Assembly (NCBI GenBank): GCA_965202585.1
Contig: OZ241833.1
Span: 30,752,001-30,816,000 of the forward strand
Source: Thalia democratica
Lineage: Eukaryota
Reading direction: 5' to 3'
Length of the DNA stretch: 64,000 nt
The position numbers were made by a program. Positions 9,001-61,800 of this stretch are shown here, piece by piece (within the stretch, counting starts at the first letter, position 1; each line of letters begins with the position of its first letter).

Positions 9001-12000
9001 TGAAAAACGTTTCGTTTAAGAAAAAACTATCTCAGTATAATTATAATTAGTTTAATTGATTTTTAAAACAAAATTTATTTTGTCCTTTCGAAACGTCATT
9101 TTTAGTTTTACTTGAACATAAAAAAAAAACTAAACTACTTATATTAATATTATCTTATTTTTAATATACCACAAAAAAAAAATTTCAACTCTTCAAGAAA
9201 AAAACTTTAAAATCAAACTTGACCAGTTTTTTCATTACAGCAAATGGCAAACTCAAAAGCCTCGAATTTAAAACTTTAAGACTGTTTTTTCGATAAAATT
9301 TTTATCGACTAAAACGTAAAAGCAACAAAAATTACTTGAAGAAATGTTATTGGTTGCTCTTAAACGGGCGCGACTTTAGTGCATACCGCGGGATGCTTAT
9401 AAAGTTGCCAATTTTTATTCAATTATTTCCAACACACGTACTTTTCTGGCTCGAAATTGCTCATAGGCCGTGGTAATTAAGGAATTGGAATTAAAACTTT
9501 ACTTTTATTTTACTTTGCGGTCAACTTATTGATAAAACTTTAGATGCTAATTATTTTTACTTGATTGTGCGTATTAGTTTTTACAGGTTACTTCAGATTG
9601 TTCTGATAATTTGAGTAGTGAAGTATTATATTATGTATATATGCATATAAATAACAACTTAACAAAAATTAATTTTCAAATGAAAACATATGACTAATGA
9701 AAAAATTAAAGTAGGAGAAAATTTTATTTTGTTATATATGTTGAAGATTTAATTAATTTACTGCATGGTAAATTTAGTGAATTACCTTTGTACATACTGA
9801 CCTAAGATGCAGTAAATGCATTTTAAATTGCTTACTTTAAAAAATTTAATTATTTAAAGCAATTTAAAACTGACTTTGAAAAATTATAAAAGTGCTTAAA
9901 ATGTACCAAAACAATTAAAAATTAATAAAGAAAAACAACTTGAGTGTTTTTTGACCTAAAATAATACTTTTTGTTTGAAACCTAAAGTTAAAGCTACAGA
10001 TAACTACTAGATAACTTTTCTCAATCTATTTTAACCGATACACATGTTTAGCATGCAGTTTACCTTGACCGGACTTTAAAAATTAAAGAAAAAAAATTAA
10101 AATTATACTAAACCATATTAACTTAAGCTATGCTTAAATAGTATAAAGAAGGTTTGAACTTTAGCTTTGTAATTATTTGTGAGAAATTTATATAAACAAA
10201 AATTTTTATACTTAATCTTTTTTATTTATATGTCGGTAGATTAGTAGAAAATTGATTTAAAACATAAAAATCTTAAATGGAAAATCAAAAAAAACGTTTT
10301 ATTCTAATCACTCAATAGATAAAGGCAAACGGATTAAATTTTCCTTATCTTGATATATTCCAAGAAAAGGAGGATACATTTCTGTAAAATTTACCGGACT
10401 TATTGAACTAGATAAGCGTGTTTGCATAATATTAATCTTGTAAGATAATTTTCAACAAAATAATTAATAAAAGATAAAGTTTGAAGTATCAAGAAACATA
10501 TTTTTTGAACATTTCTTTACATTTATATTGTTGAACGCAAAATGTGCAAGAGTAAGCCTAAAAATGAGCTCATTTTACAATTAGTCCAAAAATGTTTTAT
10601 TATTATTTATTTATTATTTATAAAATTTCATAATTGTTGTTTTAGGCTGTTAAGTTATTTTTTATGTTCAAAGGTCCAGAAATTAAACTTAGTAACCATT
10701 TTTAAATAGCCGCAAATTCTACACTAGTGACCAACTAAATTAGATTTTTATAACTTATTATAAAATCACAACGCTCAGCATAGCTAAAACCTCTGTCAAA
10801 TTTAGTATTTCGTAATAAAATAATATATGTAAAACTACTTTGTGTGAAAAAAGTCAACATTTATAAAAGCTTTGCAAATACTATTTCATATAAAAACTTA
10901 TCAAAATTAAAATAAATCTTCCACAAACCACAACCTTATTTTTATACAAAAACTCAAACTATCTTAAATGCAGTTATACCAGTTATTACAAAATTATATA
11001 AAAACAAAATTTAAGTAACATAAACATCCTACATTTGTAACAAAAACAAAACGAGACTAATTAAGAACCCGGATTTAGTTTTTCAGTTGAGAATTGCGAG
11101 TGCCTTGTTTAAAACCATAAGTATGAATTGAATATTTAATCAAGAAAGTAACTAAATCTGAGACCCAGTTGAATTGTGGGATAGAATATATATTACAATA
11201 ACAAAAATAATTTGTTTTATAATATTTTTAACTTTAATAAAAATAACACAAACAACTTCTACAAGCTCTTTTTCGGGGAAGCACTCAGTCAAAGTGTGGA
11301 CTAAAAAAATATTTTTGAACAACAAAAGTAAATCAGTTATTTTAATTGTATGCTCCAACAAGAAAGTAACAAACATTTGTGAGTTCTTTTCTGGGAAACA
11401 CTCGGTAAAATAGTGGGATGAAAGTATATATCAAAATAAAAAAACTTTTTTTTATTTAATTATTACTAATTTAAATAAAAAAAGTAACTAACTTTGGTGA
11501 GTTCTTCCTCTGGGAAGCAAGTGTGGTTGCCTATGTTGTGTTCGGTTTTGTAAGCTTGCAATTGGTCGTCAGTCCACGATTTAACCGTCGCCACGTCCTC
11601 CTCCGTGAACTCTGACCTGTGATTGGTTGAAAAAAAAAAGTTATAAATTTTTTCATTAAACTGATGTATCAACTTGCTTATATCATATCTATAATTTTTA
11701 ACTATACGGCTTATAGTCGAGTACTAAAATTTTATTAGCTTTTTGAAATAAGAAAAATAATTATCTCAGAAAAACCATTAATTCAATTAAAATCAAAATT
11801 AAACACTATTACAAGTAAAAACTCACCCGAACAAGCACTTGTAGTAGGACTGTTGCGATTTGAAGCCGAGAATGGAGAAGACGGTGAAGCAGGCGAATAT
11901 GGAGGTGGCGCAGTTGGCCGACGCCACGAATATCGCGTCCTGTTACACATACAGCTTGAGTTTGATATTCATTGTTATCAGTTTGGTATTTGTTATTTTG

Positions 12001-58800: not shown

Positions 58801-61800
58801 CAAAAGTCAAGTTAGTCAACATTCTGTTTAGAAGTAACTCAACATGGCTGAAGTTTAATGTAAAACATAAAAAAGACTATGTTTGTGTTTGATATAAAAA
58901 TAAACTAACTTAAAATATTTTAAGTGAGTTTTATTGAAATCTCATATTATTACAAAATGTTATAATATTATTTTAATTTATATTCGATATTAGATATATT
59001 AGATAAAAGCACTTAGAAGATAAAAATTCACTAAATTGCTGTCTTGTTTAGCCCACCTAAATGTTAAGTTATCTAAAATGGTTATTAAAAACCTTATATT
59101 ATACTATATTAAGTAATTAAGTAATTATATTATAAGTTATACATGTTTTTTTTATTAAATTGTCACAAGCTCACCATTGATGTGGTCGAATTTTAATTAA
59201 TAGCAAAAATATATTATTATATGTAACTTCATTTGAAGAAACTCAAGTTAATCTTGTTCAAAAAGCTCACCGGTGGTGTGGTCAAACTGGGGGGCGACCT
59301 GCGAGTTGGCCCTGCTGTCCCACAGCCAGTCGAAATCGTCCCCTTTCGCGTTGAAGTAGGTGCAGAGGCCGGCCTCGAAGTCGCAGGTTCCCGGTTTGGG
59401 GCAGCTGCTGTCCAGCATCAGCACGTCGTCTATCGCCACCGAGCCCTGCGTGCTGTCACCTGCCGGAAGAAAAAAAATTGGTAACATGCGGCACTGAAAA
59501 AATAAAGTTGATGGTTTTAGTTGCGCATTGGCATTGTAGTTGTGAGATGTCAGTCACGCTAGATTTTGTTTTATGTGCATGATTAAAAATTTTATCTGTA
59601 ACAAGTAAGCTTTTCTTATCTTCGTAGGTTACAGTTGGAAAATATGGTCGAGTATTCAAGTAAAGACTTTATAAGTTATCATACACCTTGTACTAAATGA
59701 AATTGCATCAATTACAAACTACGCTATTTAGACTTGAAAAAAGCTATTAAGAAGCCACATGGTCACCTTTGTGAGCTTCGAAGGCCACTTACGACGTTGG
59801 GTACATTTCGGCTAACAAAACAAATTTAAATTGTTTACAAACCTCTGTAAGCTTCGAACACAGCGTTGTATTTGTACGCTGAAGGGTACATCTCGGCGTA
59901 CCCCAGCACCCAGGTGTCATCCGAGTTGCTCCCCTGCCTCACGAACGTCACCTGGTTGTGGTCGGTTCCCTGGTCCCTGACCTGCTGCTGAACCTTCAGC
60001 GTTCCCGCGTCGCCGCTCATAGAGTACCAGAACGTCAGGCAGTTGCCGCCTGATAATTTGTAAATAAAGTTAAATAAGTCAATATATTTTAACATTGATG
60101 GTGATAACGTAATAAAGAAGATAATTTAATTTATTTTGAATAATTTATTAAACCTTTAGTAGGAATGATTTTGAGCATTTAATTGGCTAGTTTTTTTGTA
60201 CATGCTAGTTGACTTTTTCAAAAAACCTAATTAATCAACTATTAATCAACCATTATAGACATACTTTGATAGATGAGTAACTTAAAAAAGACATAAAGTG
60301 TAAAAAAATAAATACAAAACAATGAAATCTCACCGAGACAGTTGCCCCAGTATCCGACGTACTCCGACGTCGTGGAGCACCAGGGCCTGTCATGGTCCTC
60401 GTATATGCACGTCCAGTGCTGTACCCCGTTGTAAGTGAAGGGGAAGGCGCATGGTAGGGAATTTCCCGTGCCCCCGGTGGTGTACACAATACCGCGCGCA
60501 CCGCACTGGAGCCAATCACCGTCGTATATCGGGTCCACGGAGCACCACGGCTCGCCGTTGTTGTTCACCGTCGTGCACTCGTAGTACGTCACGTTCTGTG
60601 TGAAAAAGGAGATTTTTTTTTGTTGAACTCGTTTTTAGTCGATTGTTGTTTTGAAACAAATGTTGAAAGGATTTATACTAACTTGATTGTAGGATGGCTA
60701 TTTATTACACTTTAACAATTTTAAAATCAATTTCTTGAGATTTTGTTAGTTCTTTTACCTAATCTTCGAAACACACACAAAGGTTTAAAGCTGATTTGTA
60801 GACAAACCGCATGAATTATTTATTTTTATGACCACCAAATCGAGGAAATTTAAATATATAGAAAAATTAAAGTTCCATACCTGGTAAACAAACGGGAATG
60901 AGCAGGAAGCTTCCTGGGCGGTAATGTACTCACGTGACTTCAAAGCGGCTTTTCCGCCAGATGGCGCCTCGTTGGGGTCGGCGAATGCGAACTGGCCTAA
61001 AGAGGCTCCTGTCGTGTGGTCGGTGGTCGGACCCGTTCCGTAGTTGGGGCTTCCTGTGATACAGTGTTTGCTTAAAAATAATTTAACAGCAAAAAAAACA
61101 AGAAAAAACAAAAATTTTTCAAAGATATATTGCAGATATTATTTAGTAAAAATGCACATAAATATGATTACAAATCTATTTTGCCATTTTATTTGAAGCA
61201 ACGACGTAACATTCAAGTTACCAGTTTAAACTAGTTTAAACCACATTAACAACAATAATTTTCTAAAAGTAACACGCGTCTGAAAATTAAACCACTTGCT
61301 AAGGCACACACAAGTATGCATTTATGTAAAGCATCTAAAACAAATCTGAATAAATTTTCCCAACCTTGACTGCCGACCTTCCACTGGTAGTCGCCGACGT
61401 TGGCGAAGTTGCACAGCCCCTGCTCGAAATCGCACGCGTCCTTGTCTCCGGGATCCCCCTCGCAGTAGCCGTCGGAGAACGTGACGTCATCGACGCTCAC
61501 GTCACCGTTCCAGCTTCCGGTCTTGGTGACGCGGAAGGCGAGTTTGTAGGCGGAAGTGGGGTTGGAGTAGTGGACGATGCCTGGCAGCCACAAGTCCTTC
61601 GAGCCGCTCGACGTTTTCGCGATCTGTGCGACGATTGATTTTTAAACTTGACGGGGTCGAGACTGCACTTGTATGAACTTTTCTTTTTAGTTTTGTTGAA
61701 AATTAAAAGTTGTGACGAAAATATAATTGTTTGTAATACAACAGTAGTACTTTTTAATATAAAGTAGTAGTAAAAACCGTGGTAAAAATAGGTAAAATAA

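What the first reader, a model, noticed from the sequence alone, without database searches (positions are those of the whole stretch)
11257..59811. Pervasive decaying 'shadow' copies of exon edges in neighbouring introns of both genes
Seen: at least nine short (25-45 nt) copies of an exon end plus its splice site lie 40-300 nt from the real exon: 11257-11300, 11375-11418, 12107-12150, 13644-13684, 13825-13869, 28793-28822, 37738-37769, 42818-42858, 59167-59191, 59767-59811. In several copies the differences are mainly C>T/G>A, often at CpG, and some splice signals are broken. Inference: local tandem duplication is very frequent here and seeds decoy splice sites, which could provide raw material for intron gain, intron sliding or alternative splicing. 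The decay pattern hints at CpG methylation or strong AT-biased mutation, despite CpG-rich exons.
Basis: partly seen in the sequence, partly recalled or inferred. Interest (0 to 1): 0.68.

Follow-up and report, generated by a model that had tools for sequence, protein, structure and literature searches.

The report
Decaying exon-edge copies in neighbouring introns
Short, decaying copies of exon ends with their splice signals really do sit in the adjoining introns of two animal (tunicate-like) genes; they look like leftovers of small tandem DNA duplications that crossed a splice junction, a known kind of event that is unusually dense here.

Summary

**What is in the window**
- The DNA is AT-rich: introns 25.6% GC, exons 56%, GC3 74%.
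- It holds two minus-strand genes: an SLC6/SNF transporter and a giant MAM/LDLa/FN2/EGF gene.
- The nearest named proteins are ascidian, at 67-69% identity, so I do not take it for human.

**Evidence that the copies are real**
- Exon edges match the abutting intron in 12 of 148 tests.
- Controls gave 4 of 296 (direct) and 3 of 296 (inverted); p = 3.8e-5.

**What the copies look like**
- They are direct repeats lying 40-298 nt from the real edge.
- They include intron flank, so they arose at the DNA level.
- Four loci (A, B, F, G) are head-to-tail tandem units.

**Splice signals**
- 11 of 14 copies keep GT or AG, with scores in the range of real sites.
- If used, each of the 11 would add a stop codon or a frameshift.

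**Decay**
- Decay is AT-biased, with an implied equilibrium of 28% GC.
- A CpG-specific effect is unproven.

**Verdict**
- The copies carry pre-existing intron flank, so they are not intron births.
- Junction copies outnumber purely non-coding duplications more than my neutral models predict. This remains unexplained.
- It is a new member of a known kind.

The parts
11161..11520 (-). Locus A. Tandem array of about 118-124-nt units across the donor junction of SLC6 exon 11493-11616. Unit 3 is the real edge; the shadow copies are A1 11360-11400 and A2 11233-11283. A partial fourth unit lies near 11105-11230.
   Evidence: exon part 22/26 identical for A1 and 18/27 for A2. A1 21.5 and A2 12.5, against a null maximum of 12; whole units are 79/116, 80/114 and 82/119 identical, and a further match to 11105-11230 scores 31.5 (z = 8). 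Both copies keep GT.
11925..12310 (-). Locus B. Head-to-tail duplication of about 182-205 nt across the acceptor of SLC6 exon 11833-11939. Copy 1 is 11925-12106 (real). Copy 2 is 12107 to about 12310, with the exon-like part at 12107-12148.
   Evidence: three collinear blastn hits; exon part 13/15, intron part 24/27; the extension scores 50 against a null maximum of 19 (z = 19.8). One search gives the full alignment. AG is kept.
12719..12862 (-). Locus C (new). Copy 12719-12768 of the donor edge of SLC6 exon 12817-13019. The donor GT is lost.
   Evidence: 16 against a null maximum of 11.5; exon part 30/42; the site is broken (TT).
13527..13870 (-). Locus D. Two copies (D1 13644-13681, D2 13829-13870) of the acceptor edge of SLC6 exon 13339-13548. 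Both keep AG.
   Evidence: exon parts 19/22 and 16/18; 20 and 15.5 against a null maximum of 12.5; no similarity detected in the intron remainder.
15010..15188 (-). Locus E (new). Copy 15010-15043 of the donor edge of SLC6 exon 15164-15361. GT is lost.
   Evidence: 15 against 11; exon part 19/25; leftward extension z = 3.9.
28586..29060 (-). Locus F. Duplication of about 204 nt across the acceptor of MAM-gene exon 28433-28615. The exon-like copy is 28790-28841. The second unit carries later insertions.
   Evidence: 27 against 9.5; exon part 26/30; extension z = 3.8. One search gives the alignment. AG is kept, at the 67th percentile of real acceptors.
37734..37812 (-). Locus G. Immediate 40-nt head-to-tail duplication at the donor of exon 37780-37951. 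The copy is 37734-37772.
   Evidence: 23 against 12; exon part 27/33, offset 40, and the copies abut. GT is kept. Its use would shift the frame by 40 nt.
39713..39908 (-). Locus H (new, weak). Copy 39866-39908 of the acceptor edge of exon 39579-39740.
   Evidence: 13 against 10; exon part 18/25. AG is kept, at the 82nd percentile.
42708..42873 (-). Locus I. Copy 42816-42873 of the acceptor edge of exon 42588-42742. AG has mutated to AA.
   Evidence: 27 against 9; exon part 29/35. All 6 differences are exon C/G to copy T/A transitions, 4 of them at CpG.
56837..56986 (-). Locus J (new). Copy 56837-56869 of the donor edge of exon 56968-57161.
   Evidence: 15 against 11; exon part 14/19, intron part 11/14. 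GT is kept, at the 89th percentile of real donors.
59155..59288 (-). Locus K. Copy 59155-59192 of the donor edge of exon 59271-59459.
   Evidence: 16 against 10; exon part 13/18, intron part 18/20. GT is kept.
59765..59901 (-). Locus M. Copy 59765-59816 of the donor edge of exon 59843-60049.
   Evidence: 14 against 10.5; exon part 38/50, with gaps. GT is kept.
4105..15361 (-). Host gene 1. An SLC6 (sodium:neurotransmitter symporter) gene, with 9 exons found in the window.
   Evidence: Pfam SNF, E = 5e-23 to 3e-11 on three exons. The exon order and ends agree with the transcript-derived proteins P0001-P0003.
27493..63985 (-). Host gene 2. A giant gene with MAM, LDL-receptor class A, fibronectin type II and EGF domains. 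My model has about 70 exons, and the gene runs off the window.
   Evidence: Own splice-aware model, with the frame kept across all junctions. Pfam hits for MAM, Ldl_recept_a, fn2 and EGF on seven exons.

Best explanation
The 'shadows' are the distal copies left by small tandem duplications of genomic DNA whose units crossed a splice junction. Units are 40 to about 200 nt, and some loci duplicated more than once. After such a duplication the exon body still joins to the splice site next to it. The second copy, made of 15-59 nt of exon, the splice signal and the intron flank, is therefore stranded inside the intron. The intron grows by one unit. The stranded copy is no longer under coding selection and drifts towards the AT-rich composition of the surrounding intron. 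Meanwhile the real edge is held constant, which keeps the pair recognisable long after the purely intronic remainder of the unit has faded.

Shown here: the copies exist, are direct, lie only in the abutting intron, include intron flank, and are head-to-tail at four loci. Decay is AT-biased. The decoys are non-productive if used.

Inferred: the duplication mechanism (replication slippage or unequal exchange), neutrality of the copies, and continued use of the exon-proximal site in the MAM gene.
For: (1) Local, direct and side-specific. 12/148 abutting tests succeed, against 4/296 non-abutting or mid-exon tests and 3/296 inverted tests.

(2) The copies carry intron flank beyond the splice site (172 of 216 aligned intron positions identical, summed). 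The template was therefore genomic DNA, not mRNA.

(3) Head-to-tail structure.
- B: unit 11925-12106 is followed at once by 12107 to about 12310 (z = 19.8).
- A: three units of about 118-124 nt, 68-70% identical over their whole length, plus a partial fourth.
- F: about 204 nt.
- G: 40 nt, with the copies abutting.

(4) The SLC6 exon ends that I call 'real' are the ones present in transcript-derived proteins of close relatives (P0001-P0003, 56-98% identity per exon). These pass from exon to exon without any shadow sequence.

(5) Decay. G/C sites changed at 27% (25% at CpG sites) and A/T sites at 16%. S>W is 0.241 per G/C site against W>S 0.093 per A/T site, which implies an equilibrium GC of 0.28. 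Intron GC is 0.256.

(6) Known precedents.
- Tandem units spanning an exon-intron boundary leave silent pseudo-5' splice sites downstream of the authentic one in human F7 intron 7 (PMC1557585, abstract read).
- Tandem genomic duplication within genes is described as prevalent (PMC3443670, passages read; PMC2891723, passages read).
Against: For 8 of 12 loci only a patch is similar (exon part plus 2-24 nt of flank). The rest of the presumed unit shows nothing above shuffles.

Under a simple equal-rate decay model the intron remainder should still be visible at D1 and F (P = 0.00 each), and probably at A1 (P = 0.037).

Purely non-coding duplications of similar unit size are scarce.
- Introns: 16/454 windows, mostly parts of B, D and F. 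The one clear independent case is a 20-nt minisatellite.
- Intergenic DNA: 2/222 windows. Long intron: 2/118. Both are at chance level.
- Uniform-duplication simulations predict 7.6-11.1 detectable purely intronic events.

The exon part is short relative to the unit: e/d < 1/3 at 9 of 12 loci, p = 0.004. A uniform process alone does not predict this.

There is no transcript evidence for the MAM gene, and no second genome to date the events.
Confidence: 0.78

Rival explanations
1. Junction-biased origin or retention. In this reading, duplication breakpoints fall preferentially in GC-rich exon edges, perhaps because stable microhomology or fork or transcription pausing occurs at the sharp GC/AT boundary. 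Alternatively, the exon-like copies are kept similar by gene conversion from the real edge, or by selection as splicing decoys. Either way the excess over purely intronic duplications would be real rather than a detection effect.
For: There are 12 junction loci against one clear purely intronic event. Chance-level signal appears in 18 kb of intergenic and long-intron DNA. Four decay models predict 7.6-11.1 purely intronic events: P(X<=1) = 0.0002-0.004, and P(X<=5) = 0.035-0.23. Within single loci the exon-like part outlasts the intron remainder. Density is uneven: 5 loci on 7 SLC6 exons against 7 loci on 69 MAM-gene exons.
Against: The sample is one window with 12 events. The models rest on assumed indel and substitution rates, and loci B and F show 10-20-nt indels that shorten intron detectability. 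The 4 marginal intron windows cannot be excluded. Exon-like copies do decay, and 3 of 14 have lost the splice dinucleotide. All intact decoys are non-productive. No conservation data are available.
Confidence: 0.15
2. At the patch-only loci (C, D, E, H, I, J, K, M), the copy could be a short templated insertion made during double-strand-break repair. A nearby stretch would have been copied into the break, rather than a full tandem unit being duplicated.
For: Similarity is confined to 33-61 nt at these loci, with no detectable similarity in the rest of the presumed unit.
Against: No inverted local copies were found (3/296, chance level). From recall, template-switch repair commonly gives both orientations. 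At loci A, B, F and G the full unit is visible. Loss of the AT-rich remainder by decay explains most of the loci with K of about 0.24-0.29 (P = 0.08-0.61 for C, E, H, J, K, M).
Confidence: 0.12
3. Assembly or haplotype artefact, or chance similarity.
For: From recall, tunicate genomes are often highly heterozygous, and false tandem duplications occur in assemblies. Two or three of the weakest matches (A2 alone, H, 43085-43098) are near the null maximum.
Against: The copies are 67-89% identical in the exon part and show a directional AT-biased spectrum. They are not the near-identical copies that mis-assembly gives. The window has no N. The excess over the controls has p = 3.8e-5.
Confidence: 0.03
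4. Functional alternative exon ends or mutually exclusive mini-exons.
For: 11 of 14 copies keep GT/AG, with scores inside the range of real sites.
Against: Each copy covers only one edge of the exon (15-59 nt). Using the decoy adds 40-298 nt of intron, which brings a stop in 10 cases and a frameshift in 1 of the 11. The proteins from relatives' transcripts skip them.
Confidence: 0.03

Closest known systems
Junction-spanning minisatellite of human F7 intron 7, with silent pseudo-5' splice sites (PMC1557585; abstract read)
   Same: The first unit of a tandem repeat spans the exon-intron boundary. The authentic donor is therefore followed by copies of itself inside the intron, and the exon-proximal site is the one used. 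Locus A here, with three or more units of about 118-124 nt across a donor, has this layout.
   Different: The F7 units are 37 bp and the pseudo-sites are identical in sequence. Here the units are 40 to about 200 nt and mostly in two copies. They are 67-89% identical and occur at acceptors (5 loci) as well as donors (7 loci). Which splice site is used was not assayed here.
Internal (partial) gene duplication, i.e. tandem genomic duplication within genes. Sources: Gao & Lynch 2009 PNAS, recalled, seen only as a reference and not held; review PMC3443670, passages read; Drosophila cases PMC2891723, passages read.
   Same: Small tandem DNA duplications inside genes that include exonic sequence and duplicate splice signals.
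   Different: Those papers focus on duplications that create a new intron from duplicated exonic AGGT, or that shift an intron. Here every copy carries older intron flank, so an existing intron was lengthened and none was created.
Tandem exon duplication and unannotated exon copies in adjacent introns (PMC9013439 and PMC6071210; abstracts read)
   Same: There is homology between an exon and its neighbouring intron that arises from tandem genomic duplication, and the duplication also takes in adjacent intron sequence.
   Different: Those are whole exons with both splice sites, and they are often used in mutually exclusive splicing. Here only one edge of the exon is copied, and the copies cannot code.

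Membership tests
Tandem DNA duplication spanning a splice junction (internal gene duplication) | The copy is in direct orientation and lies in the intron that abuts the copied edge | tested here: met
   12/148 abutting direct tests succeed, against 4/296 non-abutting or mid-exon and 3/296 inverted.
Tandem DNA duplication spanning a splice junction (internal gene duplication) | The copy includes intron sequence beyond the splice site, so the template was genomic and not mRNA | tested here: met
   Intron-flank parts aligned in all 14 copies, 172/216 identical in total (summed).
Tandem DNA duplication spanning a splice junction (internal gene duplication) | Head-to-tail contiguity, with similarity over the whole unit | tested here: inconclusive
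   Met at A, B, F and G and marginal at E (z = 3.9). Not detectable at C, D, H, I, J, K and M. Decay could hide it at most of these.
F7-type junction-spanning minisatellite with pseudo splice sites | Three or more tandem units, with the first spanning the exon-intron boundary | tested here: met
   Met at locus A only: three units plus a partial fourth. D has two patch copies. The other loci have one copy.
F7-type junction-spanning minisatellite with pseudo splice sites | Pseudo-sites identical to the authentic site | tested here: not met
   The copies are diverged (exon part 67-89% identical), and 3 of 14 have lost GT/AG.
F7-type junction-spanning minisatellite with pseudo splice sites | The exon-proximal (authentic) site is the one used | tested here: inconclusive
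   The SLC6 exon ends agree with transcript-derived proteins of close relatives. There is no RNA from this organism and no transcript evidence for the MAM gene.
Intron gain by tandem duplication of an exonic AGGT segment | The duplicated unit is exonic, and the new intron is bounded by the two copies of AGGT | tested here: not met
   Every copy carries pre-existing intron flank (a polypyrimidine/AG context or a donor flank), and it lies 40-298 nt inside an intron that extends beyond it.
Tandem exon duplication / mutually exclusive exons | A whole exon with both splice sites and an open frame is duplicated | tested here: not met
   Only 15-59 nt of one edge are copied. The extensions contain stops or shift the frame.
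Methylation-driven CpG decay | Transitions concentrated at CpG, and CpG depleted in the decaying DNA | tested here: inconclusive
   10/48 CpG sites against 22/155 other G/C sites, p = 0.27. In the post-hoc subset, 8/24 against 6/57, p = 0.022. CpG o/e is 0.88 in introns, 1.02 in exons and 0.61 in the intergenic stretch. Methylation itself cannot be tested with these tools.

The most novel reading that the evidence does not exclude
In this AT-rich tunicate-like genome, the sharp GC-rich-exon/AT-rich-intron boundaries may themselves be hot spots for small tandem duplications, or the exon-like copies may be actively kept. Under this reading, splice junctions are duplicated several-fold more often than neutral DNA. 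Genes are then continually seeded with competent decoy splice sites, and introns grow mainly by swallowing copies of their own borders.
Probability: 0.15. Interest if true: 0.6.

Novelty: new member of a known kind. Interest (0 to 1): 0.33.

Why it matters
Small tandem duplications that cross a splice junction are a recognised source of pseudo splice sites and of intron growth. They are usually seen one at a time. Here about 8% of junctions in two neighbouring genes carry a recognisable remnant, including 5 loci on 7 exons of one gene. That gives a compact natural series of decoy sites of different ages.

If the density holds genome-wide, it would offer three things:
- a way to measure the neutral mutation spectrum, since the exon keeps the ancestral state and the shadow records the decay;
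- a way to study how the spliceosome ignores competent nearby decoys when exons and introns differ strongly in GC;
- a way to estimate how much intron length comes from such events.

If the density does not hold, this is an ordinary by-product of duplication plus selection on the coding copy.

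Tried and rejected
**Tandem Repeats Finder on the whole window.** It lists 106 rows, almost all short-period (2-34 nt) arrays in AT-rich DNA. It finds none of the junction loci, because their intron parts have decayed. It was therefore not useful for this question.

**Extension tests beyond the aligned patch.** These were negative for C, D, H, I, J, K and M.

**Exon-middle, far-intron and inverted queries.** All were at chance level. 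This rejects a general exon-to-intron similarity and rejects inverted copies.

**RNA-mediated origin.** Rejected because the copies include intron flank.

**Intron birth by AGGT duplication.** Rejected on geometry.

**Productive alternative splicing.** Rejected by reading through the extensions.

**Literature.**
- Gao & Lynch 2009 could not be read because it is not held.
- Six searches turned up no paper describing dense exon-edge copies in tunicate introns. That is not proof that none exists, and supplementary files were not consulted.

**Not done.**
- I did not search any joined (spliced) protein model. Exons were searched one by one and the joined step was left out.
- No eukaryotic genome collection was available, because genome contigs holds only bacteria and archaea. 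Orthologous introns, population variation and reads therefore stayed unchecked.

Full report
**What the window is**

The 64-kb window has no N. It is strongly AT-rich outside exons. In my model the introns are 25.6% GC, an 11.8-kb intergenic stretch is 23.5%, and the exons are 56.1%, with 73.6% GC at third codon positions.

I built a splice-aware exon chain for the minus strand with a small dynamic programme. It used codon log-odds, AG...GT boundaries and phase continuity. It gave 83 exons with the frame kept at every junction. Seventy-six of these, between 11493 and 63587, were used for the statistics. Their median exon length is 169 nt and median intron length 328 nt.

Exon-by-exon Pfam searches identify two genes:
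- an SLC6/SNF transporter (three exons, E = 5e-23 to 3e-11);
- a very large gene with MAM, LDL-receptor class A, fibronectin type II and EGF domains.

One SLC6 exon, searched on its own, finds unnamed proteins at 93-97% identity. The best named hits are ascidians (Phallusia, Ciona) at 67-69%. I therefore take the window for an unnamed tunicate-like animal, not for human.

The transcript-derived proteins P0001-P0003 align to the window exon after exon. They confirm the SLC6 exon order and ends, including a 6.6-kb intron after exon 11493-11616.

Yes. A blastn self-comparison shows a sharp local excess of direct matches. Of the 47 hits with score >= 20, 17 have offsets of 20-400 nt. Each further 400-nt bin up to 4000 nt has 0-7, and the bin with 7 comes from a repeat at 1.9/3.4 kb.

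In a designed test, each exon edge (45 nt of exon plus 8 nt of intron) was aligned to its flanking introns and, as a null, to about 70 unrelated introns.

| Query and target | Beat every null |
|---|---|
| Acceptor edge, upstream (abutting) intron | 5 of 74 |
| Donor edge, downstream (abutting) intron | 7 of 74 |
| Acceptor edge, far intron | 2 of 74 |
| Donor edge, far intron | 1 of 74 |
| Exon middle, upstream intron | 1 of 74 |
| Exon middle, downstream intron | 0 of 74 |
| Reverse-complemented edges, all four combinations | 3 of 296 |

The contrast of 12/148 against 7/592 has p = 3.8e-5. About two of the twelve are expected by chance. The weakest, a 13/14-nt match at 43085-43098, I leave aside.

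Eleven of the twelve were aligned in detail, giving 14 copies at 12 loci. The twelfth locus is A, at the donor of exon 11493-11616, whose long intron was outside the test set. Four are new: C 12719-12768, E 15010-15043, H 39866-39908 and J 56837-56869. A1, D1 and D2 beat their nulls clearly. A2 does so only marginally on its own.

**Anatomy**

Every copy is direct and lies 40-298 nt from the real edge. It always sits in the intron that the edge abuts: downstream of donors (7 loci) and upstream of acceptors (5 loci).

Each copy comprises 15-59 nt of exon, the splice signal and intron flank. The flank parts are 172/216 identical in total (summed). The template was therefore genomic DNA rather than spliced RNA.

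Four loci show complete head-to-tail units:
- **B:** 11925-12106 is followed directly by 12107 to about 12310 (extension score 50 against a shuffle maximum of 19).
- **A:** an array of three units of about 118-124 nt, 68-70% identical over their whole length, plus a partial fourth.
- **F:** a unit of about 204 nt whose second copy has acquired 9-18-nt insertions.
- **G:** two abutting 40-nt units.

E is marginal (z = 3.9). At the other seven loci only the patch is recognisable.

**Splice signals and coding consequences**

Eleven of 14 copies keep GT or AG. C, E and I have lost it.

Position weight matrices built from the 76 real sites place the intact decoys at the 18th-89th percentile of real sites. 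They fall at the 79th-100th percentile of intronic GT/AG. By sequence, then, they are competent-looking decoys.

Reading from the real exon into each decoy gives a stop codon in 10 cases and a 40-nt frameshift in the eleventh. Their use could only give unproductive transcripts. The relatives' SLC6 proteins contain no shadow sequence.

**Decay**

Over the exon parts there are 385 aligned positions and 83 differences: 45 transitions and 38 transversions.
- The exon has G/C where the copy has A/T 49 times. The reverse occurs 17 times.
- Per site this is 0.241 against 0.093, an implied equilibrium of 28% GC. That is close to the 25.6% of the introns.
- The exon parts have fallen from 52.7% to 44.4% GC in the copies.

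The CpG part is not settled.
- Transitions affect 10/48 CpG positions against 22/155 other G/C positions (p = 0.27).
- In the six best-preserved copies, a subset chosen after seeing the data, the figures are 8/24 against 6/57 (p = 0.022).
- CpG o/e is 1.02 in exons, 0.88 in introns and 0.61 in the intergenic stretch. These gene bodies show little long-term depletion.
- Gene-body methylation of a subset of genes is documented in Ciona (PMC3827831, abstract seen in the listing). The idea is therefore reasonable, but it is untested here.

**Are junction copies more frequent than ordinary non-coding duplications?**

What the window shows:
- Tiling the introns with 53-nt windows, 16 of 454 beat all nulls (about 6.5 expected).
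- Most of the 16 belong to loci B, D and F.
- The only clear independent event is a 20-nt minisatellite at 52877-53012.
- The intergenic stretch (2/222 windows) and the long SLC6 intron (2/118) are at chance level.

What simulation predicts:
- I simulated tandem duplications with uniform start positions, neutral AT-biased decay and the same detection pipeline.
- For the 12 junction loci these predict 11.1 detectable purely intronic events.
- With larger or more frequent indels, or a 1.5-fold faster intron rate, they predict 7.6-10.2.
- Against one clear event this is a deficit (P = 0.0002-0.004). If the four marginal windows are counted it is not (P = 0.035-0.23).

Other observations that bear on this:
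- Within single loci the intron remainder is less similar than the simple model expects at D1, F and A1. Faster turnover of AT-rich DNA explains at least part of the imbalance.
- The exon share of the unit is small: below one third at 9 of 12 loci, p = 0.004. This fits selection against copies that carry enough exon to be recognised as one. It also fits breakpoints that favour exon edges.
- Density is uneven: 5 loci on the 7 exons of the 5' half of SLC6 against 7 loci on 69 exons of the MAM gene.

**Interpretation**

The best-supported reading (confidence about 0.78) is as follows. These are remnants of small tandem DNA duplications that crossed a splice junction. The exon-proximal site stays in use, the distal copy is stranded in the intron and lengthens it, and it decays towards intron composition while the coding copy is held fixed.

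The twelve nearest copies account for 1443 nt of added intron.

The events did not create introns, because each carries older intron flank. They offer no productive alternative splice form.

The main open rival (about 0.15) is that junctions are favoured as breakpoints or that the copies are retained. One window cannot decide this. Short templated repair insertions could account for some patch-only loci, but the absence of inverted copies speaks against that. Assembly artefact and chance are excluded for the bulk by the divergence, the directional spectrum and the controls.

**Relation to what is known**

The layout matches the junction-spanning minisatellite of human F7 intron 7. There, copies of the donor follow the authentic site and stay silent (PMC1557585, abstract).

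It also matches the general class of internal tandem duplications within genes:
- review PMC3443670, passages;
- Drosophila cases PMC2891723, passages;
- Gao & Lynch 2009, recalled only, not held.

It differs from intron gain by AGGT duplication and from tandem exon duplication (PMC9013439 and PMC6071210, abstracts). The membership table sets out these differences.

My six literature searches found no description of such a dense series in a tunicate. That is not evidence of absence, and supplements were not seen.

I rate it a new member of a known kind, of modest interest. The unexplained junction excess is the part worth a genome-wide follow-up.

Noticed in passing
window 11493-63587, all 76 modelled donor sites: The donor consensus is AG|GTTTGT. 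Intron position +3 is T in 43 of 76 sites (A 16, G 12, C 5), where most eukaryotes have a purine (from recall). Acceptors mostly read ACAG|. Four of the 7 SLC6 donors whose exon ends agree with the relatives' proteins also have T at +3. My model did not use a splice-site matrix, so some boundaries could be off by a few bases.
   Followed up: partly
window 11493-63587: There is an extreme composition contrast between coding and non-coding DNA: GC3 is 73.6% and exons 56% GC, against 25.6% in introns and 23.5% in intergenic DNA. Whatever keeps the exons GC-rich is switched off in the shadow copies.
   Followed up: partly
window 1914-2123 and 3422-3666: A repeat of about 210 nt is present twice, 96.7% identical and 1.5 kb apart. 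Each copy contains a 41-nt tandem array (3.6 and 4.4 units) with GC-rich TCCGG motifs. It lies where the 3' end of the SLC6 gene would be expected.
   Followed up: no
window 1-4108: Residues after about 446-458 of the relatives' SLC6 proteins P0001-P0003 (623-645 aa) find no match in the window. The last exons are either too short or diverged for tblastn, or they are missing or disrupted near the repeats.
   Followed up: no
window 52877-53012: A 20-nt minisatellite of 6.8 units, 92% matching, lies inside the 1158-nt intron of the MAM gene. It is the only clear purely intronic tandem repeat with several units.
   Followed up: partly
window-wide AT-rich DNA: Tandem Repeats Finder lists many two-copy tandem duplications with 7-23-nt periods throughout introns and intergenic DNA (106 rows in all). 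This suggests that very short tandem duplication is a common mutation type here. No shuffled control was run.
   Followed up: no
window 13763-13797, 20648-20671, 27905-27925: There are (TA)n microsatellites of 10-18 units. One of them sits between the two shadow copies of locus D.
   Followed up: no
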